Source: Planctomycetota bacterium
Lineage (GTDB): Bacteria > Planctomycetota > Planctomycetia > Pirellulales > Thermoguttaceae
NCBI GenBank assembly: GCA_049324855.1
Contig: JBMOMU010000336.1
Coordinates: 1 to 16,031, forward strand
Reading direction: 5' to 3'
DNA length: 16,031 bases
Shown: positions 550-15,803 of the stretch, one piece after another
Numbering within the stretch: position 1 is the first letter of the stretch
How the letters are laid out: every line of letters starts with the position of its first letter
Position numbers and translations under genes: made by a program
The notes under the pieces: generated by a model
What the model saw: the letters and a program-made list of their open reading frames with translations, nothing else
Database searches by the model: none
What the model was told of the DNA's origin: nothing

Positions 550-627
550 AGCGGCGATCGTGAAGGCCCCGTGCGGGAGACCCGTCCGATCGACCAGAAG
601 TTATTCAGTCACCTGGGAGCAAGTTTC

Positions 628-1347: not shown

Positions 1348-1366
1348 AGTGCAGTAAGGACGCTAT

Positions 1367-2680: not shown

Positions 2681-2741
2681 CCGAAGTCTGGTGACTATCG
2701 AGCGACTGCGTTGTCGAATTGCCGCGATGGGGAGAGATAGC

Positions 2742-4142
2742 ATGTGCAACATTCGAACAAGTATCGGGTTGGCAATTGCGATCGCCTCGTGCGTGTCTTT
2801 CGCGGTCCTTGAGGCCCGGTCGGCGGAGGCGGACGCGACGACGAAATCAGGCCGGCCGAACATTGTCTTCATTCTCGCCGATGACCTCGGCTACGGCGAC
2901 CTCGGCTGTTACGGCCGGGAAGACATTCGCACGCCGAATCTCGACCGGCTGGCGCAGCAGGGCGTCCGCTTCACTCAGTACTACGCCAACGGGCCCGAAT
3001 GCACGCCCACGCGGACGGCGCTGCTGACAGGGCGCTATCAGCAACGTGTCGGCGGTTTGGAGTGCGCGATCGGTGTAGGCGGCGTGGGCCGCTACGACGA
3101 CGCCATTCGCCTCGACGAACAGGACGAGCTTGGGTTGCCCGCCAGCGAAACCAGTCTCGGGCAGATTCTGAAAGCGGCGGGTTACGCCACTGCCATCACC
3201 GGCAAGTGGCACCTGGGATACGAAGACAAGTTCGCGCCCAGCCGGCATGGTTTCGACGAAGCGTTTTACATCGTGGGCGGAAGCGCCGATTACTTCCACC
3301 ACACCGAACCGGACGGCACGCACATGCTCCGGCGCAACGGCGCGCCTGAGCGCCGCGAGGGGTACATCACCAATCTGATCAGCGATGAGGCGGTGGCGTT
3401 CGTCGAGCGCGCGGGCGACAAACCTTTCTTTCTCTACGTGCCGTACACTGCGCCGCACTCGCCCTTCCAGGGGCCGAACGACCGCCAGGAGCAGCCACTT
3501 TCGCCCGACTCGCCGCTGAATGATCAGGGTAAGAGCCCGCTGCCGGTCTATCGGGCGATGATTGAGTGCATGGACCAGGGGATTGGCCGGATCCTGGAGC
3601 AGCTCAACAAAGATAAGGTTGCAGATCATACGCTGGTGATCTTTGCCAGTGACAACGGCGGCACACGCAGCGGACGCAACGCGCCGCTTTCGGGGCAGAA
3701 GGGGCAAACATTTGAAGGCGGCATCCGTGTACCGGCGATCGCGCGCTGGCCGGGCGTGCTGCCGGCAGGCGTGACGTACGATCAGCCCTGCGCGACATTC
3801 GATCTCACCTGCTCAATGGCCCGCGCCGCCGGGGCGAAGTTGCCCGCGGGCCGCTCCTTCGACGGGATCGACATCCTCTCTTACGTAGAGAAGGAGCAGG
3901 CTCCGCCCGCGCGAATGCTCTTCTGGCGCAAACTCCGCGGGGATCAGACCTGGTGGGGAGTGCGCGACGGAAAGTGGAAGTACGTCCGCCGCCAGGAGGG
4001 CGACAAACAGCAGGAGCACCTCTTCGATCTGGAGGCCGACATAGCGGAGGAGAACGACCTGTTGGCCGAGAATCCGCAGGTGGCCTCGCGGCTCCGCGAG
4101 GCCCTCAGCGCGTGGGAAGAGGAAGTGCGGCCGGTGCGGTAG
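2742..4142 (+). CDS. Secreted Cys-type sulfatase (arylsulfatase family)
   Basis: GGAGAG at 2731-2736 lies 5 nt before the ATG at 2742. The protein has a Sec-type signal peptide (MCNIRTSIGLAIAIASCVSFAVLEA). IVFILADDLGYGDLGCYG and the formylglycine motif C-T-P-T-R (nt 3000-3014) are present, followed by GKWHLG. The track start at 2691 lacks an RBS and would put the signal peptide internally. Confidence 0.88.
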   Translation: MCNIRTSIGLAIAIASCVSFAVLEARSAEADATTKSGRPNIVFILADDLGYGDLGCYGREDIRTPNLDRLAQQGVRFTQYYANGPECTPTRTALLTGRYQQRVGGLECAIGVGGVGRYDDAIRLDEQDELGLPASETSLGQILKAAGYATAITGKWHLGYEDKFAPSRHGFDEAFYIVGGSADYFHHTEPDGTHMLRRNGAPERREGYITNLISDEAVAFVERAGDKPFFLYVPYTAPHSPFQGPNDRQEQPLSPDSPLNDQGKSPLPVYRAMIECMDQGIGRILEQLNKDKVADHTLVIFASDNGGTRSGRNAPLSGQKGQTFEGGIRVPAIARWPGVLPAGVTYDQPCATFDLTCSMARAAGAKLPAGRSFDGIDILSYVEKEQAPPARMLFWRKLRGDQTWWGVRDGKWKYVRRQEGDKQQEHLFDLEADIAEENDLLAENPQVASRLREALSAWEEEVRPVR

Positions 4143-4328
4143 AGACTTCTCAACGAAACGAATATCGCCACCGATTGGCTTCAGAATCGCGAAAGCGCGA
4201 AAGAACGAAAGCGCTAAATCGGGAGCTGGATTTTCAGCCAACGACATGCTGGCGGCGTTCTTCGCGGTTTCCACCCCTTCGTTGTTCCGCGATCGTCGTG
4301 AGTTGGACGATCCACCGGTGCGATCCGC

Positions 4329-5666
4329 CTAATCCTTCCCGTCGTTGAGCCATGCAGGATCAATCCGCGCGAGTGTGAGGTAGTGGTAGCTCGTTGGTCT
4401 TGTGCTCTTGCCATCGGCCTTGCCGCGCTCGTAGAAGCAGAGGATCGTACCGTCGGGAAGCACGGCAAGGTCGCTGTAGGCCGAGAATCCCGGTTCGAGC
4501 GTTTTGCGCACCGGCCACGTGGCCCCCTCGTCGTAGCTCATCTGCAGCGAGAGGTTCTTGCGGTCGCGTGATTTTCCCGGCGCTACTTTCGCGTCGGCCC
4601 GCTCCAGGTTGTATGGGTTCGAAAAGAGGATGCGGTTGTTGTCCGCGGGCGGGCTCAGGCTGAGCCGCGCCATGCTCGCCATGCACACGGGATCGAGCAA
4701 GGCATCGTGGAACTCAGGCTCGGTCCAGTCGCTCGCTCCGTTGGGGCTATAGGCCACAACACGGCGGTTGGGCGGGGACTCGGTGCGGCCGTTGAACATC
4801 ACACGACCATCAGCCAGCTCGAGCACCGTAGCTTCGCTCGGGTTCACGAACTCGTCGGTGCAGGGAATCACGATGGCGCCGCGCTGCCAGGACTGGCCGC
4901 CATCGTCGGAATAGATCGTCGCCGCTACTGAAGGGCGATGCGCGTTGCCACCCGTGCCGGTCGAAAGCCACACGGGCACCACCAGCCGTCCGCTGCGAAG
5001 CTCGATGCCGTGACCGGGACCGGTGGCCAGCACCTTCCAGTCATACTCGGGGCGGAAGCGATCGAACGTCGATGTAGTTTCCACCGGCTGGCTGAAGGTC
5101 TCGCCGTCGTCCGTACTCCGCTGATAGAAGCAGCGCATGTATTCCACGCAGAAGAGCAAGTGCACGGTGCCGTCGCGGGCGGCGATGGCCGCAGCATTGT
5201 GGTATGTCACGGTGTCGGGCTTCGCACCCTTCCTTCTGGCCAACGGATTCGGTGCGATCGGGCCATCGGCTTTGGCGATGCTTCGCGGAGGAGAGAACGA
5301 CCGTCCGCTGTCGGTGCTGCGGCACATGAGGATCTGCGTGTAGTCCCAGTCGCTGCCTGAATCGCGCCGCGCCTCGCAGAATGTAAGCACGGTGCCGCGG
5401 GATGTAACTACGATGCCGGGAATGCGGTAAAGGGTGAAGCCTCCCTTGCCCGCCTCGAAGAGGTCGATCTTCACCGGTTCACCGCCTGGCGCGTCGGCGA
5501 CCGCGGACGCCCCTTGCCGCGTGGCAGCTTCACCTGCAGTGCCGTCTGGGAGGGAAGATGCCAGCAGATGGGCAAGACATAACGCCGCTGCAGCGCCCGT
5601 CTGGACCGGCCTAGGAAGCCGCGCTCGACTCGATGTGCCACCGAAAACCAGGGGAGAGATTTGCAT
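4329..5666 (-). CDS. Exo-alpha-sialidase (GH33, BNR/Asp-box beta-propeller)
   Basis: The start was chosen at the ATG at 5666-5664, which has a GGAG about 8 nt upstream on the - strand, followed by a hydrophobic signal-like segment. The protein has an FTLYRIPGIVVTSRGTVLTFCEAR (YRIP) motif and four Asp-boxes (STDSGRSF, STDDGETF, SDDGGQSW, SYDEGATW). The 150-codon P/R/S-rich extension up to 6113 in the track is treated as a non-coding read-through artefact. Confidence 0.82.
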   Translation of the reverse strand: MQISPLVFGGTSSRARLPRPVQTGAAAALCLAHLLASSLPDGTAGEAATRQGASAVADAPGGEPVKIDLFEAGKGGFTLYRIPGIVVTSRGTVLTFCEARRDSGSDWDYTQILMCRSTDSGRSFSPPRSIAKADGPIAPNPLARRKGAKPDTVTYHNAAAIAARDGTVHLLFCVEYMRCFYQRSTDDGETFSQPVETTSTFDRFRPEYDWKVLATGPGHGIELRSGRLVVPVWLSTGTGGNAHRPSVAATIYSDDGGQSWQRGAIVIPCTDEFVNPSEATVLELADGRVMFNGRTESPPNRRVVAYSPNGASDWTEPEFHDALLDPVCMASMARLSLSPPADNNRILFSNPYNLERADAKVAPGKSRDRKNLSLQMSYDEGATWPVRKTLEPGFSAYSDLAVLPDGTILCFYERGKADGKSTRPTSYHYLTLARIDPAWLNDGKD

Positions 5667-5720
5667 GGGGTAGCTCCGTTGTAGCTTAGCGAGCCAGACC
5701 AGGAAGTTATGCTCGGGTCC

Positions 5721-5851
5721 GTGTGCCACCGACCAACCGGCGATATTCGCCGGTCGGTGCCCGCGCAAAAGCAGTGTTCCCTCGTGTGTTCTGGCACTGC
5801 TCGTGCCCGGGCACCAATCGGCCACCCAGGGCCGGTTGGTCGGTGGCACAC
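5721..5851. repeat. Inverted-repeat cluster in the divergent intergenic region. A perfect 20-bp inverted repeat (5721-5740 / 5832-5851) encloses a 33-bp near-palindrome (5727-5759) and a perfect 12-bp palindrome GTGCCCGGGCAC (5803-5814).
   Basis: GTGTGCCACCGACCAACCGG at 5721-5740 is the exact reverse complement of CCGGTTGGTCGGTGGCACAC at 5832-5851. CACCGACCaaccGGCGA-tat-TCGCCGGTCGGTG lies at 5727-5759. Confidence 0.7.
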
Positions 5852-5964
5852 TTTGCAGCACCGGCCCACTTAGGGGCGGGCTAGCCAAACGCGCCGGTGA
5901 GGCGCGTGGTTCCGATTGTAGCACGGCGTGGGACCGGCCGCGCGCCGCTGAGCGGGGGGCGTGG

Positions 5965-5993
5965 TTGACCCGACCATTGCGGGGGGGTAGATT
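5965..5993 (+). promoter_or_regulatory. Candidate sigma70-type promoter for the NfeD-flotillin-giant operon, TTGACC-N17-TAGATT
   Basis: TTGACC at 5965-5970, a 17-nt spacer, and TAGATT at 5988-5993. It lies about 120 nt upstream of the ATG at 6114 and downstream of the inverted-repeat cluster. Confidence 0.3.
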
Positions 5994-6113
5994 CGTTTGT
6001 TCGGAGCGTGTGGATTGGCTGCGGGCGGGCGCGGCCGCACGTACCGAACTTCGTGCGCCGATTGGCGTGCTCGCGCGACAAATTGGCCTCACGATCTGCG
6101 GGAGCGGGGGCAA

Positions 6114-6779
6114 ATGCTCGAAGTCTTCCAGACCGCCGTTGCGCTTCCGACGCTGCCATACACTATCCTCTTAGTGTTAGTGTTGCTGTACTGGCTTCTG
6201 TTCTTGGTGGGGGCGGCGGGCGCCGATTTGCTCGACGGGGTCGATCTCGACGTCGATGCCGATGTGGACGTCGACGCCGATGCCGACGCGGAGCTTGCGT
6301 CCGGTTCCGCCGGGTGGCTCGCACCGCTCCTGCAGTTCTTCTTTGTGGGAGAAGTGCCGCTCACGGTGATCTTCAGCATCCTCATCATTGCGATGTGGAC
6401 GATGGCGATGATCGTGAACTACTACCTGGGCGGAACGCGGCTGTGGGTCGGGCTGGCGCTGTTTCCGGCGCTGTTTTTCGTGGGGCTTGTTTTCACCCGC
6501 GCAGTGCTCACGCCGATTGCCCCGTACCTCAAGCGAGTCCTGGCCCAAGAGGGCGATAAGATCGACCTGGTGGGCAAGCGGTGCACGATCCACTCGATCG
6601 AGGCCACAAGCGCCTACGGCCAGGCAGAGGTGCCGATGCGCGGAGCACCGCTCTTGCTGAATGTGCGAACGAACGAGGGAATCGTTCTCAAGCGAGGCGA
6701 AGAGGCCGTAATCTGCCGGTACGATGAAACCGCCCGCGCCTACGTGGTGACCGGATTCGACGGGAACGCGGCGGGATGA
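6114..6779 (+). CDS. NfeD-like (YuaF/YqiJ-type) membrane protein with a C-terminal OB-fold
   Basis: GGAG at 6101-6104 precedes the ATG at 6114. There are two or three hydrophobic helices (TILLVLVLLYWLLFLVGAAGA, LTVIFSILIIAMWTMAMIV, LWVGLALFPALFFVGLVF). The C-terminal segment (KRCTIHSIEATSAYGQAEVPMRGAPLLLNVRTNEGIVLKRGEEAVICRYDETARAYVV) resembles the NfeD beta-barrel. It sits immediately upstream of a flotillin gene, the classic NfeD-SPFH arrangement. The TTG-start extension to 5997 is rejected. Confidence 0.62.
   Translation: MLEVFQTAVALPTLPYTILLVLVLLYWLLFLVGAAGADLLDGVDLDVDADVDVDADADAELASGSAGWLAPLLQFFFVGEVPLTVIFSILIIAMWTMAMIVNYYLGGTRLWVGLALFPALFFVGLVFTRAVLTPIAPYLKRVLAQEGDKIDLVGKRCTIHSIEATSAYGQAEVPMRGAPLLLNVRTNEGIVLKRGEEAVICRYDETARAYVVTGFDGNAAG
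6234..6293 (+). repeat. Imperfect tandem GAC/GTC-GAT-GCC hexanucleotide-like repeat encoding an acidic D-L-D-V-D-A-D-V-D-V-D-A-D-A-D loop in the NfeD-like protein
   Basis: gacggggtcgatctcgacgtcgatgccgatgtggacgtcgacgccgatgccgacgcggag translates to DGVDLDVDADVDVDADADAE, between the first and second hydrophobic segments. Confidence 0.7.
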
Positions 6780-6797
6780 TACACACCCTGCGGTCGG

Positions 6798-6838
6798 GTG
6801 ACACCGACCGGCGAAGTCCGCCAATTCGTCGGTGGCAC
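6798..6838. repeat. Second inverted copy of the CACCGAC motif in the NfeD-flotillin intergenic region (GTGACACCGACCGGCGA ... GTCGGTGGCAC)
   Basis: GTGACACCGAC at 6798-6808 and GTCGGTGGCAC at 6828-6838 are separated by 19 nt. The core CACCGACCGGCGA is identical to the reverse complement of 5747-5759. Nested CGGTCGG/CCGACCG symmetry lies at 6791-6810. Confidence 0.6.
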
Positions 6839-6894
6839 GCAGATGCGCAGCCGTGGGGAACGACAACATACGCTAAGATAGGGGGCTCTTTGCC

Positions 6895-8949
6895 ATGCTA
6901 GATTTTGTGGAAGCATTAACGGCCGTTATCTTGTTTGGTGTCCTCCTGGTGGCGCTCGGCGTGGTGGTCACCATCGTTCGCTGCTGGCGCAAAGTGGAGC
7001 AGGGCACCGCACTGATCATCACCGGCAGCGCGGAGCCGACGGTGCACTTCTCGCGGGCCGTGGTATGGCCGCTCATCCGCCGCGCCGAGATCATGGACAT
7101 CTCCGTCAAACGGATCGAGATCTTTCGCCGCGGCTCGGAGGGACTCAACTGCCGCGACAACGTTCGCGCCGATATCAAGGTGGCCTTCTTCGTCCGCGTG
7201 AACAACACGGCCGAAGATGTGCTCCGCGTGGCCCAGTCGCTGGGCACCACGCGGGCGTCGCAGCAGGCGGCGCTGGTGGACCTGTTCGACGCGAAGTTCT
7301 CCGAGGCCCTGAAGACGGTCGGCAAGCAGTTCGACTTTGTTGAGCTCTACACGTCGCGCGAGCAGTTCAAGAACGAGATCCTCAAGATCATCGGCCGCGA
7401 CCTGAACGGGTACATCCTCGACGACGCCGCGATCGACTACCTGGAGCAGACGCCGGTCGACGCCCTGGATCCGCGCAACATCCTCGATGCCGAGGGTATC
7501 AAGAAGATCACCGACCTCACGGCGCAGCAGCAGGTGCTGGCCAACCAGATCACGCGCGACAAAGAGAAGACGATCAAGAAGCAGGACGTTGAGGCCCGCG
7601 AGGCGATCCTCGAACTCGAGCGTCAACAGGCCGAGGCCGAGGAGAAGCAACATCGCGAGATCGCCTCGGTGATGGCCCGCGAACGGGCCGAGGCGCTCAA
7701 GGTGGAGCAGGAAGAGCGACTGCGGTCCGAGCGTGCTCGCGTGGCCACCGAAGAGGAGCTGGCGATTGCCGAGGAGAACAAGAACCGTCAGATCATCGTC
7801 GCCCTGCGCAACAAGGAACGGACGGACCGCGTCGAGATCGAGCGTGTCGAGAAGGATCGTCAGCTCGAAGTCACCGAACGCGAGCGCATCGTGTCGCTGG
7901 CACAGATCGATAAGGAGAAGGCTGTTGAGACGGAGCGGCGAAACATCCAGGAGGTGATTCGCGAGCGGGTGATGGTGGAGCGGGCGGTGGTCGAGGAACA
8001 GGAGCGGATCAAGGACACGCACGAGTTCGCCACCGCCGAGCGCGCCAAGCGTGTGGCGATTACCGCCGCCGAGAAGACGGCCCAAGAGGCCCTGGTGCGC
8101 GAGATTAAGGCCGCCGAAGCGGCCCGCGACGCCGCGGAGTTCAAGGCCCAGGAGGCAGTGACATTGGCCGAGTCGCGCCGCGCCGCGGCCGAAAAGGAAT
8201 CGGCCGGCAAGAAGATCATGGCCGAAGGCATCACGGCCGAGGAAGCCGCGCTGGGAATCGCTGAGTCGCAGGTCATCGAGCGCAAGGCGCTTTCGGAGGC
8301 CCGCGGCATCGAGGCCAAACTCACCGCCGAGGCGAAGGGCCTCGAAGCGAAGGCGGGGGCCACCGAGAAGCAGGGCACGGCCGAGGCGGCGGTGATGCAG
8401 CAGAAGTTCAATGCCGAGGCCACCGGCATCACCGAGAAGGCCAAGGCGATGAAGCTGTTCCACGAGACGGGCCAGGCGCACGAGGAGTTCAAGCTCCGCC
8501 TGCAGAAAGAGAAGGATGTGGAACTGGCCGCGATCGAGGCCCAGCGCGAGGTGGCCGAGCAGCAGGCGCAAATCATGGCCGCGGCCTTGAAGAGCGCCAA
8601 GATCGACATCGTCGGCGGCGAGGCCGAGTTCTTCGACAAGATCACCACGGCCATCGTCTCGGGCAAGACGATCGACCGCTGGGTCGGCAACAGCCAGGTG
8701 CTCACCGATATCAAGGGAACCCTGTTCAATGGCGATATGAGCCACCTGCAGGACAAGCTCCGCCGCCTCATCGGCCAGTTCGACATCAGCAGCGAAGACC
8801 TGAAGAACCTCTCCATCGCAGCGTTGATTGCGAAGCTCACTGGGCTCACCGGCGATGAGGGGCTGCGCAAGGAACTTTCGCAGATCCTCAGCACGATGCG
8901 GGCCTCGGGCATGGCCGACGGCCCGGCGGCCGCGCTTCGGGAGTCCTGA
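6895..8949 (+). CDS. Flotillin-like SPFH/band-7 protein (FloT/YqiK family) with an extended Glu/Ala-rich coiled coil
   Basis: AGGGGG at 6880-6885 lies 9 nt before the ATG. There is an N-terminal membrane hairpin (LTAVILFGVLLVALGVVVTIV). The SPFH core (GTALIITGS...VVWPLIRRAEIMDISVKRIEI...ADIKVAFFVRV) is present. An EA/KR heptad region of about 400 aa follows. The protein is 684 aa, against about 500-550 for FloT/YqiK. Confidence 0.85.
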   Translation: MLDFVEALTAVILFGVLLVALGVVVTIVRCWRKVEQGTALIITGSAEPTVHFSRAVVWPLIRRAEIMDISVKRIEIFRRGSEGLNCRDNVRADIKVAFFVRVNNTAEDVLRVAQSLGTTRASQQAALVDLFDAKFSEALKTVGKQFDFVELYTSREQFKNEILKIIGRDLNGYILDDAAIDYLEQTPVDALDPRNILDAEGIKKITDLTAQQQVLANQITRDKEKTIKKQDVEAREAILELERQQAEAEEKQHREIASVMARERAEALKVEQEERLRSERARVATEEELAIAEENKNRQIIVALRNKERTDRVEIERVEKDRQLEVTERERIVSLAQIDKEKAVETERRNIQEVIRERVMVERAVVEEQERIKDTHEFATAERAKRVAITAAEKTAQEALVREIKAAEAARDAAEFKAQEAVTLAESRRAAAEKESAGKKIMAEGITAEEAALGIAESQVIERKALSEARGIEAKLTAEAKGLEAKAGATEKQGTAEAAVMQQKFNAEATGITEKAKAMKLFHETGQAHEEFKLRLQKEKDVELAAIEAQREVAEQQAQIMAAALKSAKIDIVGGEAEFFDKITTAIVSGKTIDRWVGNSQVLTDIKGTLFNGDMSHLQDKLRRLIGQFDISSEDLKNLSIAALIAKLTGLTGDEGLRKELSQILSTMRASGMADGPAAALRES

Positions 8950-8955
8950 TAGCTC

Positions 8956-11900
8956 ATGGCCTCCGACGCGACCCAGCCCGGCACTGCTGTGCCCGCTGCG
9001 GCCTCAGGCGCCCCGGCGCCGGGGGGCAACATCGAGCACGGCGCCTACGAAATCATCCGCAACCGCCTCAGCGCAGCGGGGCGGGAACTCCGCGCCCGGC
9101 TCAAGAAGCTCAATGCGGCGCGGAAGGATGTCTTCGGCGCCATCGAGACGAAGCTGCTGGCCACAGAGCGGGTGACAACAAGCAACAACTGTGTGCCCCG
9201 CGATATCACCGCCGTCGGCGACCGCTTCGTGTTCGGCTACAACGTGATGATTGGGCTGAAGTCGGTCACGACGGTCGACGACGTCTTCTCGATCTACCGT
9301 TTCCACGACACGTCGTTTGCGCCCCAGCCGCTCGGGCTGATCGACGACCCGCAGTTCCGGCGGGACTTTGAAGAGCTCTTCAAGTATTACCGCAACACGC
9401 GGTTCGCCAAGTTCGCCAACATTGGGCCGCACCTCTTCATGGTGTTCCGCACGGGGCCTGATGTGCGCGACATCAAGACGTTCAAGTGGCGACGGGAGGA
9501 CGAGCGGATCGTCTATCTCGACAACCGCAGCGACCATGAGCTGCGCTACCCGCCGCAACACGACTTCACCTGGACGCGGACGCACCGCGACATGCATCGC
9601 ACGGGGCGCTTTCCGCACATCAATATCGAGGATCGCCTCTTCGTGGAGACGATTGGCGGCGATCTGACGATCAAGGTCGAAGACAACACCGAAAGCGGCG
9701 AGGGGATCTACAGCGAGCCGGTCGACAACCCCGACCAGACGCTCGACGACGCCGAGATCTTCTACGCCGTCGTCGGCAACCTGGTGCTGCTCAAGATCCG
9801 CCCCTACCAGGAAGAAGATTTCCGCCACTTCGTCTACAGCGGCAAGACTCGCAAGGTTCACCGCATCGACTCCATCGAGCAGGCCTGTGTGCTCCTGCCC
9901 GAGGACCACGGCCTGATCTTTTCGAACGGTTACTTTCTGCAGACCGGCGAGTACAAGACGTTCGAGCACGGCGTAAGTGAGCTTCTGTTCCGTGATCGCA
10001 TCGCCGCGCCCAACGGAGAAGATTTCCTCTACGTGTTCTTCAACCGCATCGAGGGGGTCTACGTCCTTCTGCCGTACAATCTCATCGAGCAGCAGGTGAA
10101 GCTGCCGGTGATCTGCAACGGCTACTCGCTCTTCGAAGACGGGCGGATGATCCTCTTCAAGGGCAGCCCCGAACCGCAGAAGCATCACACGCTGCAGATC
10201 TGGCAGACGCCCTACGTGGGGCACGATTACCAGCCGCCTACGAAGTCGGATTCGTTCCTCTTCAAGATCGGCAATCGCGACATCGTCCGCGGCATGGCCG
10301 AGTGCCACGAGGTGCTCGGGCTGATCGCCAAAGAGGACAGCTACGTCGGGCTCTTCGTCGACCTGACGAAGACCGTGGGCGACCTGCTCGACAGCTACCA
10401 CTGGCTGGGCAGTCCGGAGGCCTTCGATCTCCGCTCCGTGCTCGAGCAGATCAAGGAAGCCGCTCAGGCGGCGATCGGGGAATACGAAAAGGTCGAGAGC
10501 GTGCGCCGGGCCACCGACGCCGAGACGCGCAAGGTCTCCGCGCGGGCGAAGGAGATTCTTGCATCGGTCCGCGCACGGCGCTTCGAGGTGATCGGCGACT
10601 TCGTCACTTCGCTCACCGACCTGCGGACGGTGCGTGGCGAGATCATCGCGCTGAAAAGTCTTCGCTACGCAGATACGGCCCGGATCGATGCCTTGGATAA
10701 CGAAATCGCCGAAAACGCCCAGCGGGTTTCTTCGCAGTGCGTGCTGTTCCTCTTGCGACCGGAATCGTTGCAGCCCTACCAGGCGGCGGTCGACGAGCAG
10801 CGCGCGGCGATCCCGGGCCTGCGCACCGTGGCCGAGGCGAAGGATCTGCAGGATCGGGTCGCGCGCTCCACGGGCGAACTCGAAATGCTCATCGACGTGG
10901 TGAGCAATCTGAAAATCGACGACGCCACGCAACGCACTGCGATTATCGACGGCATCTCCGGTGTGCTCTCGCAGTGGAATCAGGTGCGGGCCGCGCTCCG
11001 CACCCGCCGCGACGAATTGATGCGCACCGAGGGCGCGGCGGAGTTCGCCTCGCAGGTCAAGCTGCTGCAGCAAGGCGTGCTCAGCTACCTCGACGTATGC
11101 GACACACCCGAGCGCTGCGAAGAGTATCTGACCAAGATGATGGTGCAGGTCGAGGAACTCGAAGGGCGCTTCGCGGAGTTCGACGAATTCCTCGTGCAGC
11201 TCACAGAGAAACGCGAGGAAATCTACAACGCCTTCGAGACCCGGCGGGTGCAACTGGTCGAGGCCCGCAGCCGGCGCGCCACAGCGCTGGCGGCAGCGGC
11301 AGAGCGGATCCTGAAGGGCGTGAAGGTGCGGATCGACGGACTCAAGTCGGTGGGCGAGATCCACGGCTACTTCGCCGGCGACCTGATGATCGAAAAGATC
11401 CGCGACATCGTCCGCCAACTGGGCGAATTGGGCGACACGGTCAAGGTCGACGACATCGAGAGCCGGCTCAAAACGATCCGGGAAGACGCCGTCCGGCAAC
11501 TGAAGGACCGCCAGGACCTGTACGAAGACGGCGAGAACGTCATCCGGCTCGGAAACCGGCGGTTCAACGTCAATCGCCAGACGTTCGACCTGACGACCGT
11601 CTTCCGCGACGGCGAACCCTATTTCCACCTCACCGGCACCGGCTACTTCGACCGCATCGACGACGCGGAGCTGCTTGCCACCCGCAACGTCTGGTCGCAG
11701 GAGGTAATATCGGAGAATGGCGAGGTCTACCGGGCGGAGTATCTGGCGCAGCGGATGCTCGAGTCGCTGGGCAGCGGCGAAGTGCCCGAGGCCGCACAGC
11801 TCTTGAAGCTGTCGGATGCGGAGCTGCTCGAAACGGTGCAGCGGTTCATGGGGCCGCGATTCGCCGAAGGGTACGTGAAAGGCGTGCACGACCACGACGC

Positions 11901-14478
11901 CGCGAAGCTTCTCAGGGCACTCCTGGATATTGATTCAAAGGCCGGGCTCTTGCGGCATCACCCGCGCGCGCGGGCGTTGGCCAGGCTATTCTGGCGGCAA
12001 CTGGCCGACGAGGCGCAGCGCGCTGCCATTGCCGCGCATATTCGCGGATTTGGCCGGGTGCGGGAGGTGTTTCCAGATGCCGATCCGCAGGCGTTCTACC
12101 TCGCTGAACTGCACCGTTTGATCGCCGAGTTCGTGGCAGAGTCGAAGACGTTTCCCGATTACCTGGTGGAGCCGGCGGCGGCGTATCTCTTCGAGGAGCT
12201 CAGCAGCGGCGACTCGTTCGTCGTTAGCGCGGCGGCGCGCGACCTTTACCGCGCATTTCACGAGCACCTCAAGCAGCGATTCGCCGCAGAGGCGTTCAGC
12301 AAGTCGCTGGCCGACGTGAAACAACACACGAGCCGCGCCTTCGCGCTGGCGCGCGACTGGCTGGGGGCGTTTGCGGAGTCGCTCGGCAGCGCTGCGGCGG
12401 CTGACTACGTCGACGAAACGGCTCTGATGCTGCTCGATGGCGGATTCGACCTCGCGCGCGTGGTCGAGGTGGAGACCACGCGCACGATTGCCGGCATGCA
12501 AGGCAACCACGCGGTGATCGAGAAGGGGACGTACGCGCTCAACTACCACGCCTTCCGGCTCAAGCTCCGCCGCTTCGACCAGGAGACGGTGCCCAAGTTC
12601 CAGGCCTTCGCCCGGCGGAAGCAGGAACTGCTGGCCGTCGAGCGGAAGCAGATGCGGCTCGACGAGTTTCGCCCTCGCGTGCTCACCTCCTTCGTCCGCA
12701 ACCGCCTGATCAACGACGTTTACCTGCCGCTGATGGGCGACAACTTTGCCAAGCAGGTGGGCGTGGCGGGCGACGAGAAACGCACCGACCGGATGGGCAT
12801 GCTGCTGCTGATTTCGCCGCCCGGCTACGGCAAGACCACGCTCATGGAGTACGTGGCCAATCGGCTGGGGCTCGTGTTCATGAAGATCAATGGGCCCGCG
12901 TTGGGCCACCAGGTCACGTCGCTCGACCCCGGGCAGGCCCCCAATGCCGCCGCCCGCGAGGAGATCAACAAGCTCAGCCTGAGCTTCGAGATGGGCGACA
13001 ACGTAATGATCTACGTCGACGACATCCAGCACTGCCACCCGGAGTTCCTGCAGAAGTTCATATCGCTCTGCGACGCGCAGCGAAAGATCGAGGGCGTGTG
13101 GCGGGGACAGACGCGGACCTACGACTTCCGCGGCAAGCGGGTGTGCGTGGTGATGGCCGGCAACCCGTACACGGAAAGCGGCGAGAAGTTCAAAATCCCC
13201 GACATGCTTGCCAACCGCGCCGATATCTACAACCTCGGCGAGATCATCGGCGGAAACGCGGACGCCTTCCACTTGAGCTACCTGGAGAACGCGCTCACCT
13301 CGAACCCCGTGCTGGGCAAGCTTGCCGCGCGAAGCCAGGCCGATGTGTATGCCCTCATCCGCATGGCGGAGGGCGCGACCGAAGGCGTGGAACTGGAAGG
13401 AAGCTACGCCGCGGCCGAAGTGGGCGAGATGGTCACGGTGATGCAGAAGCTGATGCGCGTGCGCGACATCGTGCTCAAGGTCAACGCCGAGTACATCCGC
13501 TCGGCCGGCACGAGCGACGAGTACCGCACCGAGCCGCCCTTCAAGCTGCAGGGCTCGTACCGCAACATGAACCGTGTTGCCAGCCGCGTCGTGGCGATCA
13601 TGAACGATCGTGAGCTCGATACGCTCATCCTCGACAACTACCAGAACGACGCGCAGACGCTGACCACCGGCGCGGAGTCGAACTTGCTCAAGTTCAAGCA
13701 GCTCTGCGACTGGCTCACGCGTGAGGAGGCCGAGCGCTGGGAGCAGATCTGCCGCACCTATACCCGCAACGTGCAGATGCGCGGCATCGGCGACGACGAA
13801 AAGTTCGGCCAATTGGTGGTGCAGCTCACGGGCTTCAGCGACGGACTGCACGCGATTCAGAAGGCGGTGGGCCGCGGTGTGGAGGCGATGCTCGAGGAGG
13901 AGCGGCGCCAGAAGTCCCAAGCCGCGCAGCCTGTTGTGGCATCGTTCGACGGCGATACGGCGGCTGTGCTCAAATCGCTGCTGGAGAGCCTTCGCGCAAA
14001 CAACGGTGAAGAGCATGTGGTCCGTGCGGAGCTCGAGCCGGCCACGCTCGATGCGCTCCGCGGGCTGCTGGCCGATCTGCAGAAGGTGTGGGCCAATTCT
14101 GCTGCGTCAATCACGGCGACGGCCGATGAAGCTGCCACGCAAACAGCCGGCGCGCCCGATGCACCTGCCGTCCCAAGTGCGCCGCCGGTTCAGATCGTCA
14201 ACCGCGTGCCGGCCACGATCCTCAATGTACTCAGGCACCAATTCCGGCTTATGCAGGGTTGGCTGGAGCCGCTCGAGCGACGCAGCAGCCAGCAGGCCGA
14301 ACAGATCGAGCAGCTTAAGCAGATTCTGAAGCAAACAGCCGGGCAGTACCAGACGCTGATTGGCCTGCTCGAAGAAGCTGCCCAGAGGAAGGAAGCGGTG
14401 ATCGACGTGATTGCACGCGATCAGGCGGAATCGAAGCGGAGCGCCGGCAAGAAGCGCGGGCCGAAGCAGGAGCCGTAG
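8956..14478 (+). CDS. Giant (1840 aa) multidomain protein with an unknown N-terminal domain, coiled coils and a C-terminal MoxR/AAA_5-like AAA+ ATPase. It starts 6 nt after the flotillin stop.
   Basis: GGGAG at 8939-8943 precedes the ATG at 8956, which sits 6 nt after the flotillin TGA (8947-8949). The composition is normal (K/E/D/I/F/Y-rich) across all 1840 codons. Walker A (LLISPPGYGKTTL) is at nt 12814-12840. Walker B (MIYVDDIQH) is at 13006-13031. The sensor/MoxR-like segment (VCVVMAGNPYTESGEKFKIPDMLANRADIYNL) starts at 13153. No TM segments are apparent. Confidence 0.8.
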   Translation: MASDATQPGTAVPAAASGAPAPGGNIEHGAYEIIRNRLSAAGRELRARLKKLNAARKDVFGAIETKLLATERVTTSNNCVPRDITAVGDRFVFGYNVMIGLKSVTTVDDVFSIYRFHDTSFAPQPLGLIDDPQFRRDFEELFKYYRNTRFAKFANIGPHLFMVFRTGPDVRDIKTFKWRREDERIVYLDNRSDHELRYPPQHDFTWTRTHRDMHRTGRFPHINIEDRLFVETIGGDLTIKVEDNTESGEGIYSEPVDNPDQTLDDAEIFYAVVGNLVLLKIRPYQEEDFRHFVYSGKTRKVHRIDSIEQACVLLPEDHGLIFSNGYFLQTGEYKTFEHGVSELLFRDRIAAPNGEDFLYVFFNRIEGVYVLLPYNLIEQQVKLPVICNGYSLFEDGRMILFKGSPEPQKHHTLQIWQTPYVGHDYQPPTKSDSFLFKIGNRDIVRGMAECHEVLGLIAKEDSYVGLFVDLTKTVGDLLDSYHWLGSPEAFDLRSVLEQIKEAAQAAIGEYEKVESVRRATDAETRKVSARAKEILASVRARRFEVIGDFVTSLTDLRTVRGEIIALKSLRYADTARIDALDNEIAENAQRVSSQCVLFLLRPESLQPYQAAVDEQRAAIPGLRTVAEAKDLQDRVARSTGELEMLIDVVSNLKIDDATQRTAIIDGISGVLSQWNQVRAALRTRRDELMRTEGAAEFASQVKLLQQGVLSYLDVCDTPERCEEYLTKMMVQVEELEGRFAEFDEFLVQLTEKREEIYNAFETRRVQLVEARSRRATALAAAAERILKGVKVRIDGLKSVGEIHGYFAGDLMIEKIRDIVRQLGELGDTVKVDDIESRLKTIREDAVRQLKDRQDLYEDGENVIRLGNRRFNVNRQTFDLTTVFRDGEPYFHLTGTGYFDRIDDAELLATRNVWSQEVISENGEVYRAEYLAQRMLESLGSGEVPEAAQLLKLSDAELLETVQRFMGPRFAEGYVKGVHDHDAAKLLRALLDIDSKAGLLRHHPRARALARLFWRQLADEAQRAAIAAHIRGFGRVREVFPDADPQAFYLAELHRLIAEFVAESKTFPDYLVEPAAAYLFEELSSGDSFVVSAAARDLYRAFHEHLKQRFAAEAFSKSLADVKQHTSRAFALARDWLGAFAESLGSAAAADYVDETALMLLDGGFDLARVVEVETTRTIAGMQGNHAVIEKGTYALNYHAFRLKLRRFDQETVPKFQAFARRKQELLAVERKQMRLDEFRPRVLTSFVRNRLINDVYLPLMGDNFAKQVGVAGDEKRTDRMGMLLLISPPGYGKTTLMEYVANRLGLVFMKINGPALGHQVTSLDPGQAPNAAAREEINKLSLSFEMGDNVMIYVDDIQHCHPEFLQKFISLCDAQRKIEGVWRGQTRTYDFRGKRVCVVMAGNPYTESGEKFKIPDMLANRADIYNLGEIIGGNADAFHLSYLENALTSNPVLGKLAARSQADVYALIRMAEGATEGVELEGSYAAAEVGEMVTVMQKLMRVRDIVLKVNAEYIRSAGTSDEYRTEPPFKLQGSYRNMNRVASRVVAIMNDRELDTLILDNYQNDAQTLTTGAESNLLKFKQLCDWLTREEAERWEQICRTYTRNVQMRGIGDDEKFGQLVVQLTGFSDGLHAIQKAVGRGVEAMLEEERRQKSQAAQPVVASFDGDTAAVLKSLLESLRANNGEEHVVRAELEPATLDALRGLLADLQKVWANSAASITATADEAATQTAGAPDAPAVPSAPPVQIVNRVPATILNVLRHQFRLMQGWLEPLERRSSQQAEQIEQLKQILKQTAGQYQTLIGLLEEAAQRKEAVIDVIARDQAESKRSAGKKRGPKQEP
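12748..13260 (+). other. AAA+ ATPase module (about aa 1265-1435) of the giant protein, MoxR/AAA_5-like
   Basis: GYGKTT P-loop. A hhhhDD Walker B followed by the HCHPEFL segment. The AGNP...G...IPDMLANRADI segment parallels the MoxR ATQNP...G...LPEAQLDRF box. Confidence 0.65.
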
Positions 14479-14515
14479 GCCAGGGAGTGGCTCGTGGCTG
14501 GTGGCTAGGAAGTAG

Positions 14516-14535
14516 GGTGCGTGCTTGCACGCACC
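14516..14535. terminator. GC-rich hairpin GGTGCGTG-cttg-CACGCACC between convergent genes (possible bidirectional terminator; no U-tract)
   Basis: A perfect 8-bp stem with a 4-nt loop. It lies 38 nt after the + gene stop and 50 nt after the - gene stop. Confidence 0.25.
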
Positions 14536-14584
14536 AAGAGGTGGGGCGTGCAACGCGCCAGAACTTCTGGATTCCCCCACCGAT

Positions 14585-15601
14585 TTACGCCCGCCAGGGG
14601 CGTTCTCGACTTTGCTCGCGGCGGACGATCTGCTCCACCAGCTCACAGTTCTGCTTCATCTGGAAGTCGAACATCCCCACGGCGATGAAGTCTGCTCCAC
14701 TGCGGAAGGCGTGGGTGAAGCCCTCGCGCGGCCGGATGGCGCCAGCAGCAAGCACCTTGAACGCGATCCAGGGCTTCTCGACCGTCTTCATGAACTCCAC
14801 CACTTCCTCGGCGTTGATGCACCACTGGTTGTCGAACCAGCCCTCACTCTTTTCCATCCACATGAAGTCCTTCTGAAGATGCTTGAGTGTGGCCGAAGGG
14901 TAGTCGTCGGTGTGTAGCGTCTTCACGTAGAAATCGCAGGGCACACCGAGCTTCTCGCAGGCGACGGGCACTTTGAGCGAATGGCTGCCCACGCCCACCG
15001 GCAGGCCATGCTTCTTGGCCATCTCGACGGCGCGCCCGATCTCCTCGTAGGCGCCGGCCATGGCCAGGGTGTCGCTCGACACGCCCCAAACATAGAGCGC
15101 CACCGCGCCGGTATCGATCTGTTGTTGGATATGGCTGGCCAGTTCGGCGTCGCTCTCTCCCTGGCGGACCTCGATATGCGGAATGATCTGCAGTTTGCCG
15201 CCGCGCTCGTGGTTGTAGCGGTTGACGACCGCCGCGCCGCTCTCGAACACGGTGTTGATGCCGTACTGTTCGGCCAGTGCGAAGGTCTCGAAGAGTTTTT
15301 CCTCGTTGACATAGGCGCGGAAGAGTGAGTTTACATACTGCAGGCCGCGGGCGTGCATGCCGCCGGAGACGAGGTTGCCGCCCAAGAGCATGCGGCTGAG
15401 GCGCACGTCGCCGATCATGCCGTAGGGCATTGGGGGGACATTCTCGCCGGTCGCGGCAGTCGTGGCGGCAGGCTGCCTGGCGGGCGGAGGGGTCTCGGCC
15501 GCTGCCGCACCGCCGGCAAGGGAGGCCGCACCTGCTGCACCCGCGGCCGCGAGCGTGCGGCCCAAGAAACCTCGACGATCAACGTGCGGCTGGTCGGACA
15601 T
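14585..15601 (-). CDS. Tat-signal-bearing hypothetical protein, possibly a (beta/alpha)8-barrel sugar-phosphate isomerase/epimerase-like enzyme
   Basis: The start was chosen at the ATG at 15601-15599, with GGAGA 7 nt upstream on the - strand. The N-terminus has MSDQPHVDRRGFLGRTLAAAGAAGAASLA (twin-arginine motif). An Ala/Pro/Thr-rich linker follows. The C-terminal ...SGADFIAVGMFDF resembles barrel phosphate-binding ends. The family was not recognised with confidence. Confidence 0.65.
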   Translation of the reverse strand: MSDQPHVDRRGFLGRTLAAAGAAGAASLAGGAAAAETPPPARQPAATTAATGENVPPMPYGMIGDVRLSRMLLGGNLVSGGMHARGLQYVNSLFRAYVNEEKLFETFALAEQYGINTVFESGAAVVNRYNHERGGKLQIIPHIEVRQGESDAELASHIQQQIDTGAVALYVWGVSSDTLAMAGAYEEIGRAVEMAKKHGLPVGVGSHSLKVPVACEKLGVPCDFYVKTLHTDDYPSATLKHLQKDFMWMEKSEGWFDNQWCINAEEVVEFMKTVEKPWIAFKVLAAGAIRPREGFTHAFRSGADFIAVGMFDFQMKQNCELVEQIVRREQSRERPWRA

Positions 15602-15803
15602 GGTGCGGTCTCCGTATTTTCTTTTGTGAACGGTGCCTTGCGAGAAACCCCGCTGTCGCAAAGGGCCGGGATACGGATACTGTAACGCTTGCGCGCGTGG
15701 CGAGGCAACATGATTTCGTGCGGTTCGCGGACCACGCCGCGAGTTGACGATCGGATCAGAGGGAGGCTACCTTGGGGGAGTCTACGCAAAAGGAGGATCG
15801 AAC

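What the first reader, a model, noticed from the sequence alone, without database searches (positions are those of the whole stretch)
8956..14478. 1840-aa protein architecture: unknown N-terminal domain, then coiled coil, then helical region, then C-terminal MoxR/AAA_5-type ATPase, then C-terminal coiled coil and basic tail
AAA+ modules of MoxR type are normally small proteins of about 300-350 aa that work with VWA partners. Here a single module sits at residues about 1265-1435, behind more than 1200 residues of other material. The P-loop is GYGKTT and the Walker B is VDD. This comes after a long heptad-rich stretch of about aa 480-900. A Q/E/K-rich coiled coil follows, then a KKRGPKQEP tail. 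There is no TM segment. The size and the single ATPase resemble neither SMC/Rad50 nor BrxC/PglY layouts.
Basis: seen in the sequence. Interest (0 to 1): 0.75.

Follow-up and report, generated by a model that had tools for sequence, protein, structure and literature searches.

The report
Giant flotillin-linked AAA+ ATPase, uncharacterised
The 1840-residue protein is real and built as described, but it belongs to a widespread, already catalogued and untested family (mislabelled "DNA repair ATPase") whose gene almost always follows those of a membrane flotillin and its small partner, so it most likely remodels a membrane scaffold rather than repairing DNA.

Summary
Observation confirmed. ORF 8956-14478(+) encodes 1840 aa, colinear over 97-99% of its length with hundreds of 1600-1900-aa homologues, so it is not a fusion or frameshift artefact.

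Layout:
- N-terminal Pfam DUF3686 (E=1.5e-191), a divergent beta-propeller-like domain
- spectrin-like helical bundles, including DUF7902
- a helical domain
- a lineage-specific C-terminal tail

Walker A, Walker B (DD), sensor 1 and the residues assigned as arginine finger and sensor 2 are invariant across the aligned phyla.

The gene is the third of a conserved triad: a YqiJ/NfeD-like 3-TM protein (6111-6779), a YqiK-type flotillin (6895-8949), then the ATPase. Flotillin lies directly upstream in 57 of 62 loci. In the plasmid collection the 13 best flotillin matches are exactly the 13 ATPase-bearing records. In some Bacteroidota, Kiritimatiellota and Pseudomonas relatives PspA lies upstream.

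This operon and architecture were described computationally by Ravi et al. 2024 (PMC11237479). I found no experimental study.

Best reading: a cytoplasmic, oligomeric remodelling ATPase acting on a flotillin (and possibly PspA) membrane scaffold. Moderate interest; not a new kind.

The parts
6111..6779 (+). YqiJ/NfeD-like small membrane protein (222 aa, three hydrophobic segments and an acidic D-rich loop; a C-terminal OB-like region is inferred by analogy with YuaF); first gene of the triad
   Evidence: hhalign of the family alignment A4 against E. coli YqiJ: probability 96.2%, E=2.5e-9. Pfam YqiJ_N E=5.5e-4, below cut-off. Weak profile hit to YuaF 2k14, E=0.37. Three TM-like stretches. Present upstream of the flotillin gene in 37 of 42 loci with enough DNA, median gap 4 nt.
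6895..8949 (+). YqiK-type flotillin (684 aa): N-terminal TM, SPFH domain, A/E-rich coiled-coil region, and a C-terminal half specific to the ATPase-linked subfamily
   Evidence: hhalign of A3 against E. coli YqiK: probability 100%, E=4.6e-42 over columns 25-429. NCBI names it 'flotillin family protein'. One N-terminal TM. Lies directly upstream of the ATPase in 57 of 62 loci. Reciprocal 13-of-13 coupling in the plasmid collection. The C-terminal 185 aa show no similarity to the E. coli YqiK C-terminus.
8956..14478 (+). DUF3686-family giant AAA+ ATPase (1840 aa plus stop); database name 'DNA repair ATPase'
   Evidence: At least 4827 homologous clusters, the best 120 full length. Exact sequence is NCBI P0001, 'MAG: DNA repair ATPase [Planctomycetota bacterium]', on a contig of 16031 bp.
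9085..10401 (+). DUF3686 domain (aa 44-482): divergent beta-propeller-like domain preceded by a long helix (aa 26-60)
10402..11535 (+). Helical rod (aa 483-860): spectrin-like antiparallel helical bundles; includes DUF7902 (aa 604-687, nt 10765-11016)
11536..12735 (+). Small beta unit (aa 863-900) and all-helical pre-AAA domain (aa 926-1240)
   Evidence: DSSP of both models. No family match. Conserved in alignments A1 and A2.
12763..13590 (+). AAA+ module (aa 1270-1545), MoxR-like fold. Walker A GYGKTT 1290-1295 (nt 12823-12840). Walker B YVDDIQ 1353-1358 (nt 13012-13029). Pre-sensor-1 beta-hairpin aa 1377-1390. Sensor 1 N1403 (nt 13162-13164). Arginine-finger candidate R1421 (nt 13216-13218). 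Sensor-2 candidate R1536 (nt 13561-13563).
13591..13875 (+). Conserved post-AAA helical region (aa 1546-1640); the family core ends here
   Evidence: Alignment A5 columns 315-416. Bacteroidota-type homologues terminate here.
13876..14475 (+). Lineage-specific C-terminal extension (aa 1641-1840): low-confidence linker, conserved motif PATILNVLRHQFRLMQGW (aa 1752-1769, nt 14209-14262), long terminal helix, basic tail
   Evidence: pLDDT below 50 over aa 1714-1757; single helix aa 1753-1829. The motif is shared by Planctomycetota-type homologues only; the tail composition is not conserved.

Best explanation
The protein is the soluble ATP-driven component of a three-gene membrane module: a YqiJ/NfeD-like 3-TM protein, a dedicated YqiK-type flotillin, and the DUF3686 AAA+ ATPase.

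Shown:
- The three genes are co-directional and tightly linked across many phyla.
- The flotillin belongs to a distinct subfamily found only next to this ATPase.
- The ATPase has no TM segment, so it is presumably cytoplasmic.
- It carries one AAA+ module of MoxR-like fold with fully conserved catalytic residues and candidate inter-subunit residues.
- In several lineages the module is extended upstream by PspA (bacterial ESCRT-III) and a CesT/Tir-like chaperone.

Inferred:
- The AAA+ modules assemble into a ring, probably hexameric, as the invariant arginine-finger candidate suggests.
- The N-terminal propeller-like domains, held on spectrin-like rods, bind the partner. The most likely site is the subfamily-specific C-terminal half of the flotillin at the cytoplasmic face of the flotillin oligomer, possibly also PspA.
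- ATP hydrolysis is used to assemble, remodel or take apart this membrane scaffold during membrane maintenance or envelope stress.
- This would be analogous to RavA-LdcI (a MoxR ring with legs gripping a large oligomer), to HflK/C-FtsH (an SPFH cage paired with an AAA+ machine) and to Vps4-ESCRT-III.

The name 'DNA repair ATPase' has no support in anything tested here.
For: Linkage from the ATPase side:
- Flotillin lies directly upstream in 57 of 62 loci with at least 2.4 kb of upstream DNA, median gap 115 nt.
- The YqiJ-like gene lies upstream of that in 37 of 42 loci, median gap 4 nt.
- No other gene family is conserved in the 83 loci.
- The annotated records add Actinomycetota, Deinococcota and Gammaproteobacteria.

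Linkage from the flotillin side:
- In the plasmid collection the 13 best flotillin matches (38-51% identity) are exactly the 13 records that hold the ATPase, at adjacent coordinates.
- The other 41 flotillin-bearing records (33% identity or less, only the N-terminal half aligned) hold no ATPase.

Identity of the partners: hhalign against E. coli YqiK E=4.6e-42 and against YqiJ E=2.5e-9.

PspA context:
- A PspA_IM30 ORF ends just upstream of the yqiJ-like gene in L073 (E=1.3e-16), L036 (4.5e-14) and L028 (2.6e-10).
- Annotated operons read Tir chaperone-PspA-DUF1449-flotillin-ATPase in Hymenobacter, and YjfI-PspA-...-SPFH-ATPase on pQBR103.
- Ravi et al. 2024 reached the same reading (PMC11237479).

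ATPase competence:
- Walker A K1293, Walker B D1355/D1356, N1403, R1421 and R1536 are invariant.
- MoxR-like fold.
- No TM segment.

Precedent: the B. subtilis SPFH protein YdjI links PspA to the membrane (PMC8581546, title and abstract). A 2025 review states that a Vps4-like ATPase appears absent in bacteria (PMC7619361).
Against: - No physical interaction, ATPase activity, oligomeric state or phenotype is known for any family member. I found no experimental paper.
- The window has no PspA gene, and its 16-kb contig cannot show whether one lies elsewhere.
- Four of 62 loci lack an adjacent flotillin gene (L025, L042, L066, L072).
- Which partner the propeller binds is pure inference.
- Walker B is DD rather than DE, so hydrolysis could be slow and the protein could act as a nucleotide-dependent switch rather than a motor.
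Confidence: 0.6

Rival explanations
1. Client-maturation chaperone. The ATPase acts, as classical MoxR proteins do, on other membrane protein complexes gathered in flotillin microdomains. Flotillin and YqiJ serve only as its membrane platform, not as its substrate.
For: MoxR-like fold. Characterised MoxR proteins mature specific complexes: NorQ/NorD for nitric oxide reductase, CbbQ/CbbO for Rubisco (titles and abstracts listed). Ravi et al. read Band-7, CesT and AAA+ partners as assembly chaperones. Gene linkage fits a platform role as well as a substrate role.
Against: No VWA adaptor, and no conserved client gene in 83 loci. A dedicated flotillin subfamily with its own C-terminal half points to a specific flotillin-ATPase interface rather than a generic platform.
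Confidence: 0.15
2. Mechanical tether or motor-like element. Like midasin or dynein, the AAA+ ring moves a long lever (rod plus propeller) to pull or position something relative to the membrane, unrelated to scaffold disassembly.
Against: Only one AAA+ module per chain, against six in dynein and midasin. No cytoskeletal or nucleoid partner gene is conserved nearby.
Confidence: 0.1
3. Anti-phage or conflict system. The triad, with PspA ('phage shock'), senses or counters infection at the membrane, with the giant ATPase as sensor or effector.
For: Patchy distribution with copies on megaplasmids (pQBR103, Hymenobacter, Streptomyces and Deinococcus plasmids). A DNA methyltransferase and a phospholipase D gene lie near the pQBR103 cluster. 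Giant ATPases are common in defence systems.
Against: PADLOC gives only a P-loop-level hit (IetA, E=6e-4). No match in 50,697 phage records. No nuclease, protease or toxin domain in the triad. Sequence conservation is very high across phyla (74% column identity in the AAA+ region), unlike fast-evolving defence genes. Neighbouring genes are variable and metabolic.
Confidence: 0.07
4. DNA repair ATPase, as the database name says: an SMC/Rad50-like protein acting on DNA.
For: Only the Pfam and NCBI names. Weak P-loop-region similarity to RuvB (E=1.8e-5, far below the NCBIfam cut-off of 282 bits).
Against: One AAA+ P-loop at aa 1290, not split ABC-type heads. No DNA-binding or nuclease domain detected. 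Helical bundles instead of a long antiparallel coiled-coil arm with a hinge. No repair gene is conserved nearby; the conserved partners are two membrane proteins.
Confidence: 0.03

Closest known systems
[quoted passage not shown] 2024 (mSystems, PMC11237479)
   Same: Same three proteins in the same order. [quoted passage not shown] The window matches their 'abbreviated operon' without PspA.
   Different: The window lacks the CesT/Tir-PspA dyad and the phospholipase D gene. I did not align the Dokdonia protein itself, so identity of the family rests on architecture, on the operon, and on the equivalent Hymenobacter and flavobacterial loci. The paper is purely computational.
MoxR-class AAA+ ATPases (NorQ, CbbQ, RavA)
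   Different: Five to six times larger, with the extra domains N-terminal to the AAA+ module. No VWA partner. No match to curated MoxR sequence models. The Walker A segment looks like classical AAA. Walker B is DD.
HflK/C-FtsH and other pairings of SPFH proteins with AAA+ machines or proteases
   Same: An SPFH-family oligomer encoded or functioning with an AAA+ machine, and an NfeD-type small partner (background knowledge; SPFH-NfeD operons in PMC2636767).
   Different: From background knowledge, FtsH is a membrane-anchored classical AAA protease enclosed by a periplasmic HflK/C cage. Here the ATPase is soluble, has a MoxR-like fold, carries no protease domain, and the flotillin bulk is expected to be cytoplasmic.
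Vps4-ESCRT-III (and the bacterial PspA/Vipp1 ESCRT-III homologues)
   Same: Genomic coupling of an AAA+ ATPase with an ESCRT-III-family gene (PspA) in some relatives. Possible role in polymer turnover.
Midasin and dynein
   Different: A single AAA+ module per chain instead of six. No MIDAS domain and no microtubule-binding stalk.

Membership tests
DUF3686 / 'DNA repair ATPase' family (Pfam PF12458 architecture) | N-terminal PF12458 domain | tested here: met
   aa 44-482, E=1.5e-191, 637 bits against a cut-off of 25.
DUF3686 / 'DNA repair ATPase' family (Pfam PF12458 architecture) | Full-length colinearity with family members (PF12458 + PF25472 + C-terminal AAA, about 1600-1900 aa) | tested here: met
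   The 120 listed homologues cover 88-99% of the query and share the same Pfam set. Complete proteins carrying the domain are 1550-2036 aa long.
Flotillin-YqiJ-AAA+ operon of Ravi et al. 2024 | Adjacent 3-TM YqiJ/YuaF-like gene | tested here: met
   Window 6111-6779. hhalign against YqiJ E=2.5e-9. Three TM-like segments.
Flotillin-YqiJ-AAA+ operon of Ravi et al. 2024 | [quoted passage not shown] | tested here: met
   Window 6895-8949. hhalign against YqiK E=4.6e-42. Stop codon lies 6 nt before the ATPase start.
Flotillin-YqiJ-AAA+ operon of Ravi et al. 2024 | CesT/Tir-PspA dyad upstream (full form of the operon) | tested here: not met
   Upstream of the window's yqiJ-like gene is a BNR-repeat gene on the minus strand, and no PspA_IM30 hit appears in any window ORF scanned. 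The window therefore has the 'abbreviated' form. The dyad is present in relatives L085 and L084, and a PspA ORF is seen in L073, L036 and L028.
MoxR family proper (AAA+ clade with helix-2 and pre-sensor-1 inserts) | Fold closest to solved MoxR ATPases | tested here: met
MoxR family proper (AAA+ clade with helix-2 and pre-sensor-1 inserts) | Pre-sensor-1 beta-hairpin | tested here: met
   Model strands 478-483 and 486-491 (aa 1377-1390) between the Walker B helix and the sensor-1 strand.
MoxR family proper (AAA+ clade with helix-2 and pre-sensor-1 inserts) | Helix-2 insert hairpin | tested here: inconclusive
   There is an 18-residue conserved loop (aa 1313-1330) at that position, but DSSP assigns no strands to it.
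MoxR family proper (AAA+ clade with helix-2 and pre-sensor-1 inserts) | Match to curated MoxR sequence models | tested here: not met
   Only the generic AAA_5 (25.9 bits, cut-off 22) and AAA models match. No AAA_3/MoxR model and no NCBIfam MoxR model matches. A family profile searched against PDB sequences finds p97/Cdc48, Rix7 and RuvB P-loop segments, not MoxR proteins.
MoxR family proper (AAA+ clade with helix-2 and pre-sensor-1 inserts) | Stand-alone protein of about 300-350 aa with an adjacent VWA-domain partner | tested here: not met
   1840 aa. No VWA hit in any window ORF scanned and no conserved extra gene in 83 loci.
SMC/Rad50-type ATPases | ABC-type head split between the N- and C-termini, joined by a long antiparallel coiled coil with a hinge or hook | tested here: not met
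   A single AAA+ P-loop at aa 1290. The N-terminus is a beta-rich domain. The helices form spectrin-like bundles.
BREX/DISARM-type large ATPases (BrxC/PglY) and other PADLOC defence families | Match to defence-system profile HMMs | tested here: not met
   PADLOC gives only IetA at E=6e-4 over 29 residues of the P-loop. NCBIfam BrxF scores 16 bits against a cut-off of 50.
Dynein/midasin | Six concatenated AAA+ modules in one chain | tested here: not met
   One AAA module is detected by Pfam and in the models.

The most novel reading that the evidence does not exclude
The DUF3686 ATPase is the missing bacterial counterpart of Vps4 or NSF for membrane scaffolds. In this reading a hexameric MoxR-fold motor uses its propeller-tipped legs to dock on the subfamily-specific C-terminal cap of a dedicated flotillin cage and, where present, on PspA/ESCRT-III polymers. 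It then uses ATP to disassemble and recycle them after membrane repair.
Probability: 0.3. Interest if true: 0.75.

Novelty: new member of a known kind. Interest (0 to 1): 0.4.

Why it matters
What bacterial flotillins do, and how their assemblies and PspA polymers are turned over, remain open questions. A 2025 review states that a Vps4-like ATPase appears absent in bacteria (PMC7619361).

This family could provide an experimental handle:
- It is strictly coupled to one flotillin subfamily.
- It is highly conserved and enzymatically testable.
- It occurs in cultivable hosts: Hymenobacter, Streptomyces, Proteus mirabilis, Vibrio campbellii, and P. fluorescens SBW25 carrying pQBR103.

The work also flags a probable systematic misannotation. 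The name 'DNA repair ATPase' is propagated through thousands of genomes, and nothing tested here supports it.

The idea itself is not new, however. Ravi et al. (bioRxiv 2020, mSystems 2024) already described the architecture and the operon.

Tried and rejected
- Literature search for 'DUF3686': no paper.
- Searches combining YqiK, flotillin, AAA+, MoxR or 'ATPase involved in DNA': no experimental study of this family.
- The P. aeruginosa SPFH paper and Hinderhofer et al. 2009 do not mention the ATPase.
- Shewanella SO1376/SO1377 is a yqiJK pair followed by a terminator, with no ATPase.
- Pfam fails to recognise the flotillin even at E up to 10. A profile search against PDB sequences gave only marginal coiled-coil hits to QmcA and flotillin-2. 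The identity was settled by hhalign against E. coli YqiK.
- Sequence search of the whole protein and of the AAA+ profile against PDB gave only P-loop-segment hits.
- The wide flotillin-to-ATPase gaps seen in some loci hold unrelated insertions, not a fourth conserved gene.
- The four loci without an adjacent flotillin gene show nothing informative upstream.
- The promoter and terminator scan is not above chance.
- The SMC/Rad50, BrxC/PglY, dynein/midasin and literal DNA-repair readings were considered and rejected; see Membership tests.
Full report
**1. The observation**

The window (63% GC) contains an ATG-initiated ORF at 8956-14478 on the + strand encoding 1840 aa. Long ORFs on the opposite strand are shadow ORFs of GC-rich DNA and have no family support.

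- GYGKTT at aa 1290-1295
- YVDDIQ at aa 1353-1358
- KKRGPKQEP at aa 1832-1840

No 19-residue window exceeds a Kyte-Doolittle mean of 1.24, so there is no TM segment.

The exact sequence is already in NCBI as 'MAG: DNA repair ATPase [Planctomycetota bacterium]', on a contig whose length (16031 bp) equals the window's.

**2. Not an artefact, and not an orphan**

- A word-indexed search found at least 4827 homologous 90%-identity clusters. The best 120 cover 88-99% of the query at 55-67% identity, are 1633-1891 aa long, and carry the same Pfam set.
- The plasmid collection adds Actinomycetota, Deinococcota and Gammaproteobacteria: Proteus mirabilis, Vibrio campbellii, Photobacterium, Halomonas, and P. 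fluorescens SBW25 plasmid pQBR103.
- The N-terminal domain alone retrieves 742 clusters at 50% identity. It is always at the N-terminus, and the complete proteins are 1550-2036 aa long.

**3. Anatomy**

Pfam:
- DUF3686 (PF12458), aa 44-482, E=1.5e-191
- DUF7902, aa 604-687, E=3.8e-27
- weak AAA (aa 1283-1361) and AAA_5 (aa 1283-1408) matches, just above their cut-offs

NCBIfam and PADLOC give nothing above threshold.

Two AlphaFold models, each built on a 50-row alignment (the window segment plus 49 homologues; pLDDT 79 and 78.6), show:
- a long helix (aa 26-60)
- a beta-rich domain of about 27 strands (aa 66-417)
- helices of about 50-60 residues (aa 434-855)
- a small beta unit (aa 863-900)
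- an all-helical domain (aa 926-1240)
- an alpha/beta AAA+ core (aa 1282-1430) with lid
- further helices to about aa 1654
- a low-confidence linker and a single 77-residue terminal helix

Fold searches:
- Foldseek matches the beta domain weakly to 6-7-bladed propellers (E 1e-5 to 1e-3, TM about 0.3). It is at best a divergent propeller, in line with the 'beta-propeller repeats' of Ravi et al.

By sequence the AAA+ module is a mosaic. Its Walker A/beta2 stretch (LLLISPPGYGKTTLMEYIANRLG.IFMKINGP) resembles p97/Cdc48 (E about 2e-6). The sensor-1/arginine-finger block (VVMAGNPYTESGEKFKIPDMLANRAD) and the pre-sensor-1 hairpin are MoxR-like.

**4.

I aligned the AAA+ region from 30 loci spanning the phyla above. 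Mean column identity is 74%. K1293, D1355, D1356, N1403, R1421 and R1536 are invariant.

Assigning R1421 as the arginine finger and R1536 as sensor 2 rests on motif position and model secondary structure. That is inference; I had no coordinates to measure distances.

An invariant trans-acting arginine suggests a ring-forming, hydrolysis-competent ATPase. Walker B is DD rather than DE. From my own knowledge this also occurs in DnaA.

**5. The C-terminus is not part of the family core**

Bacteroidota-type members end at the equivalent of aa about 1640. Planctomycetota-type members add an extension with a conserved P..ILNV.R.QF.LM.GW motif (aa 1752-1769 here) and a terminal helix. Tails are variously basic, acidic or proline-rich.

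**6. Context, the main addition**

Two genes lie on the same strand immediately upstream.

- Window 6895-8949 encodes a 684-aa protein with one N-terminal TM. Pfam misses it even at E up to 10. A 26-sequence family profile aligns to E. coli YqiK at probability 100%, E=4.6e-42. NCBI calls it 'flotillin family protein'.
- Window 6111-6779 encodes a 222-aa protein with three hydrophobic segments. Its family profile aligns to E. coli YqiJ (E=2.5e-9).

Clustering all ORFs of 83 loci shows only three conserved gene families: the ATPase, the flotillin and the YqiJ-like protein.
- The flotillin precedes the ATPase in 57 of 62 loci with enough upstream DNA (median gap 115 nt).
- The YqiJ-like gene precedes the flotillin in 37 of 42 (median gap 4 nt).
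- Nothing is conserved downstream.

The coupling is reciprocal. In the plasmid collection the 13 best matches to the flotillin (38-51% identity; 11 of the 13 cover 85% or more of the query, two cover 47%) are exactly the 13 records that carry the ATPase, at adjacent coordinates. The other 41 flotillin-bearing records, including the E. coli YqiK type (33% identity or less, N-terminal half only), have no ATPase. The C-terminal 185 aa of the linked flotillin have no detectable similarity to the E. coli YqiK C-terminus. The ATPase therefore travels with a dedicated flotillin subfamily.

**7. Link to PspA**

- In L073, L036 and L028 the ORF ending just upstream of the yqiJ-like gene matches PspA_IM30 (E=1.3e-16, 4.5e-14 and 2.6e-10). 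L031 matches below threshold.
- Hymenobacter sp. DG25B is annotated Tir chaperone -> PspA/IM30 -> DUF1449 -> (flotillin) -> DNA repair ATPase.
- pQBR103 carries YjfI -> PspA -> rhomboid -> DUF2491 -> DUF350 -> DUF1190 -> glutathionylspermidine-synthase-like -> hypothetical -> SPFH -> DNA repair ATPase, all co-directional.
- Streptomyces and Deinococcus have the bare triad.
- The window also has the bare triad. A BNR-repeat gene on the opposite strand lies upstream.

**8. Prior knowledge**

Ravi et al. 2024 (PMC11237479; preprint 2020) describe CesT/Tir-PspA operons that include three further genes:
[quoted passage not shown] - a YqiJ/YuaF 3TM protein

They also note more widespread abbreviated operons lacking PspA, and give a Dokdonia example with the same gene order. 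The architecture and context are therefore published, though only computationally. I found no experimental work on the ATPase.

**9. Mechanism**

Shown: tight bidirectional gene linkage with a dedicated flotillin and a YqiJ-like protein; a soluble protein with a conserved MoxR-fold AAA+ module; lineage-specific extension with PspA.

Inferred: ring assembly; propeller-on-rod legs that bind the flotillin's specific C-terminal half and/or PspA; ATP-driven assembly, remodelling or disassembly of the membrane scaffold during membrane maintenance or stress.

Analogies:
- RavA-LdcI, a MoxR ring with legs on a large oligomer
- HflK/C-FtsH, an SPFH cage with an AAA+ machine
- Vps4-ESCRT-III

I put about 0.85 on functional partnership with the flotillin and about 0.6 on the stated mechanism class. 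The specific 'disassemblase' version gets about 0.3.

**10. Rivals**

- A MoxR-style chaperone for other clients, using flotillin only as a platform (0.15).
- A midasin/dynein-like mechanical element (0.1).
- A defence or conflict system (0.07). Megaplasmid copies and a nearby methyltransferase and phospholipase D on pQBR103 speak for it. Against it: no PADLOC or phage matches, no effector domain, very high conservation.
- A literal DNA-repair ATPase (0.03). Only the database name supports it.

**11. Verdict**

The protein is a new member of a known, catalogued and computationally described but experimentally untouched family. Its interest lies in the strict coupling to a flotillin subfamily and in the open question of how bacterial flotillin and PspA assemblies are remodelled, not in a new architecture.

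Noticed in passing
window 6895-8949: Pfam-A reports no family at all for this 684-aa flotillin, even at E up to 10. A family profile nevertheless aligns to E. coli YqiK at E=4.6e-42. The ATPase-linked flotillin subfamily seems to fall outside current Band_7/flotillin models.
   Followed up: partly
window 7500-9000: Strong positive AT skew (0.29-0.40) and raised GC skew. The interval lies inside the flotillin gene, whose translation is rich in A, E, K and R here. I read this as a codon-composition effect, not a replication signal.
   Followed up: no
L084 (P. fluorescens SBW25 plasmid pQBR103, 84437-97641 of NC_009444.1): One co-directional ten-gene run begins YjfI family -> PspA/IM30 -> rhomboid -> DUF2491 -> DUF350 -> DUF1190 -> glutathionylspermidine-synthase family and continues into the flotillin-ATPase module. 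A phospholipase D family gene lies about 8 kb downstream and a DNA methyltransferase just upstream. From memory the first genes resemble the E. coli yjfIJKLMC operon; I did not check this.
   Followed up: partly
L018, last 40 aa of the ATPase ORF (1906 aa; ORF coordinates not recorded; C-terminal match region 6001-8502): The Desulfobacterales HSG16 homologue ends in an ankyrin-repeat-like sequence (…GADPKLQDKDGMTALDWAQK…) in place of the planctomycete-type tail. This is another sign that the C-terminus is a swappable adaptor.
   Followed up: no
L019, L032, L075, L076, L041 (between the flotillin and ATPase genes): Gaps of 630-915 nt hold unrelated insertions. By eye, L019 and L032 look like IS200/REP-type transposase ORFs and L075 and L076 like DUF559-type endonuclease ORFs; none of these was scanned against a family library. 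L041 (Limisphaerales) has a roughly 60-aa coding-like unit repeated three times.
   Followed up: no
L002 2845-5969 (also L013, L015): A second, unrelated gene pair recurs near the triad in four loci, among them a Sumerlaeota, a Hydrogenedentes and a Phycisphaeraceae locus. It consists of an AAA (PF00004) protein of about 600 aa and a protein of about 278 aa.
   Followed up: no
window 14487-15661: Downstream of the ATPase are overlapping ORFs on both strands (129 aa on +, 358 aa on -) with no Pfam, NCBIfam or PADLOC match. Which one is real is undecided.
   Followed up: partly
window 571-6113: The left part of the window is ordinary carbohydrate metabolism: 3-keto-disaccharide hydrolase, ATP-dependent phosphofructokinase, sulfatase, and a BNR/sialidase-like protein on the minus strand. 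It is not conserved next to the triad in the other loci.
   Followed up: yes
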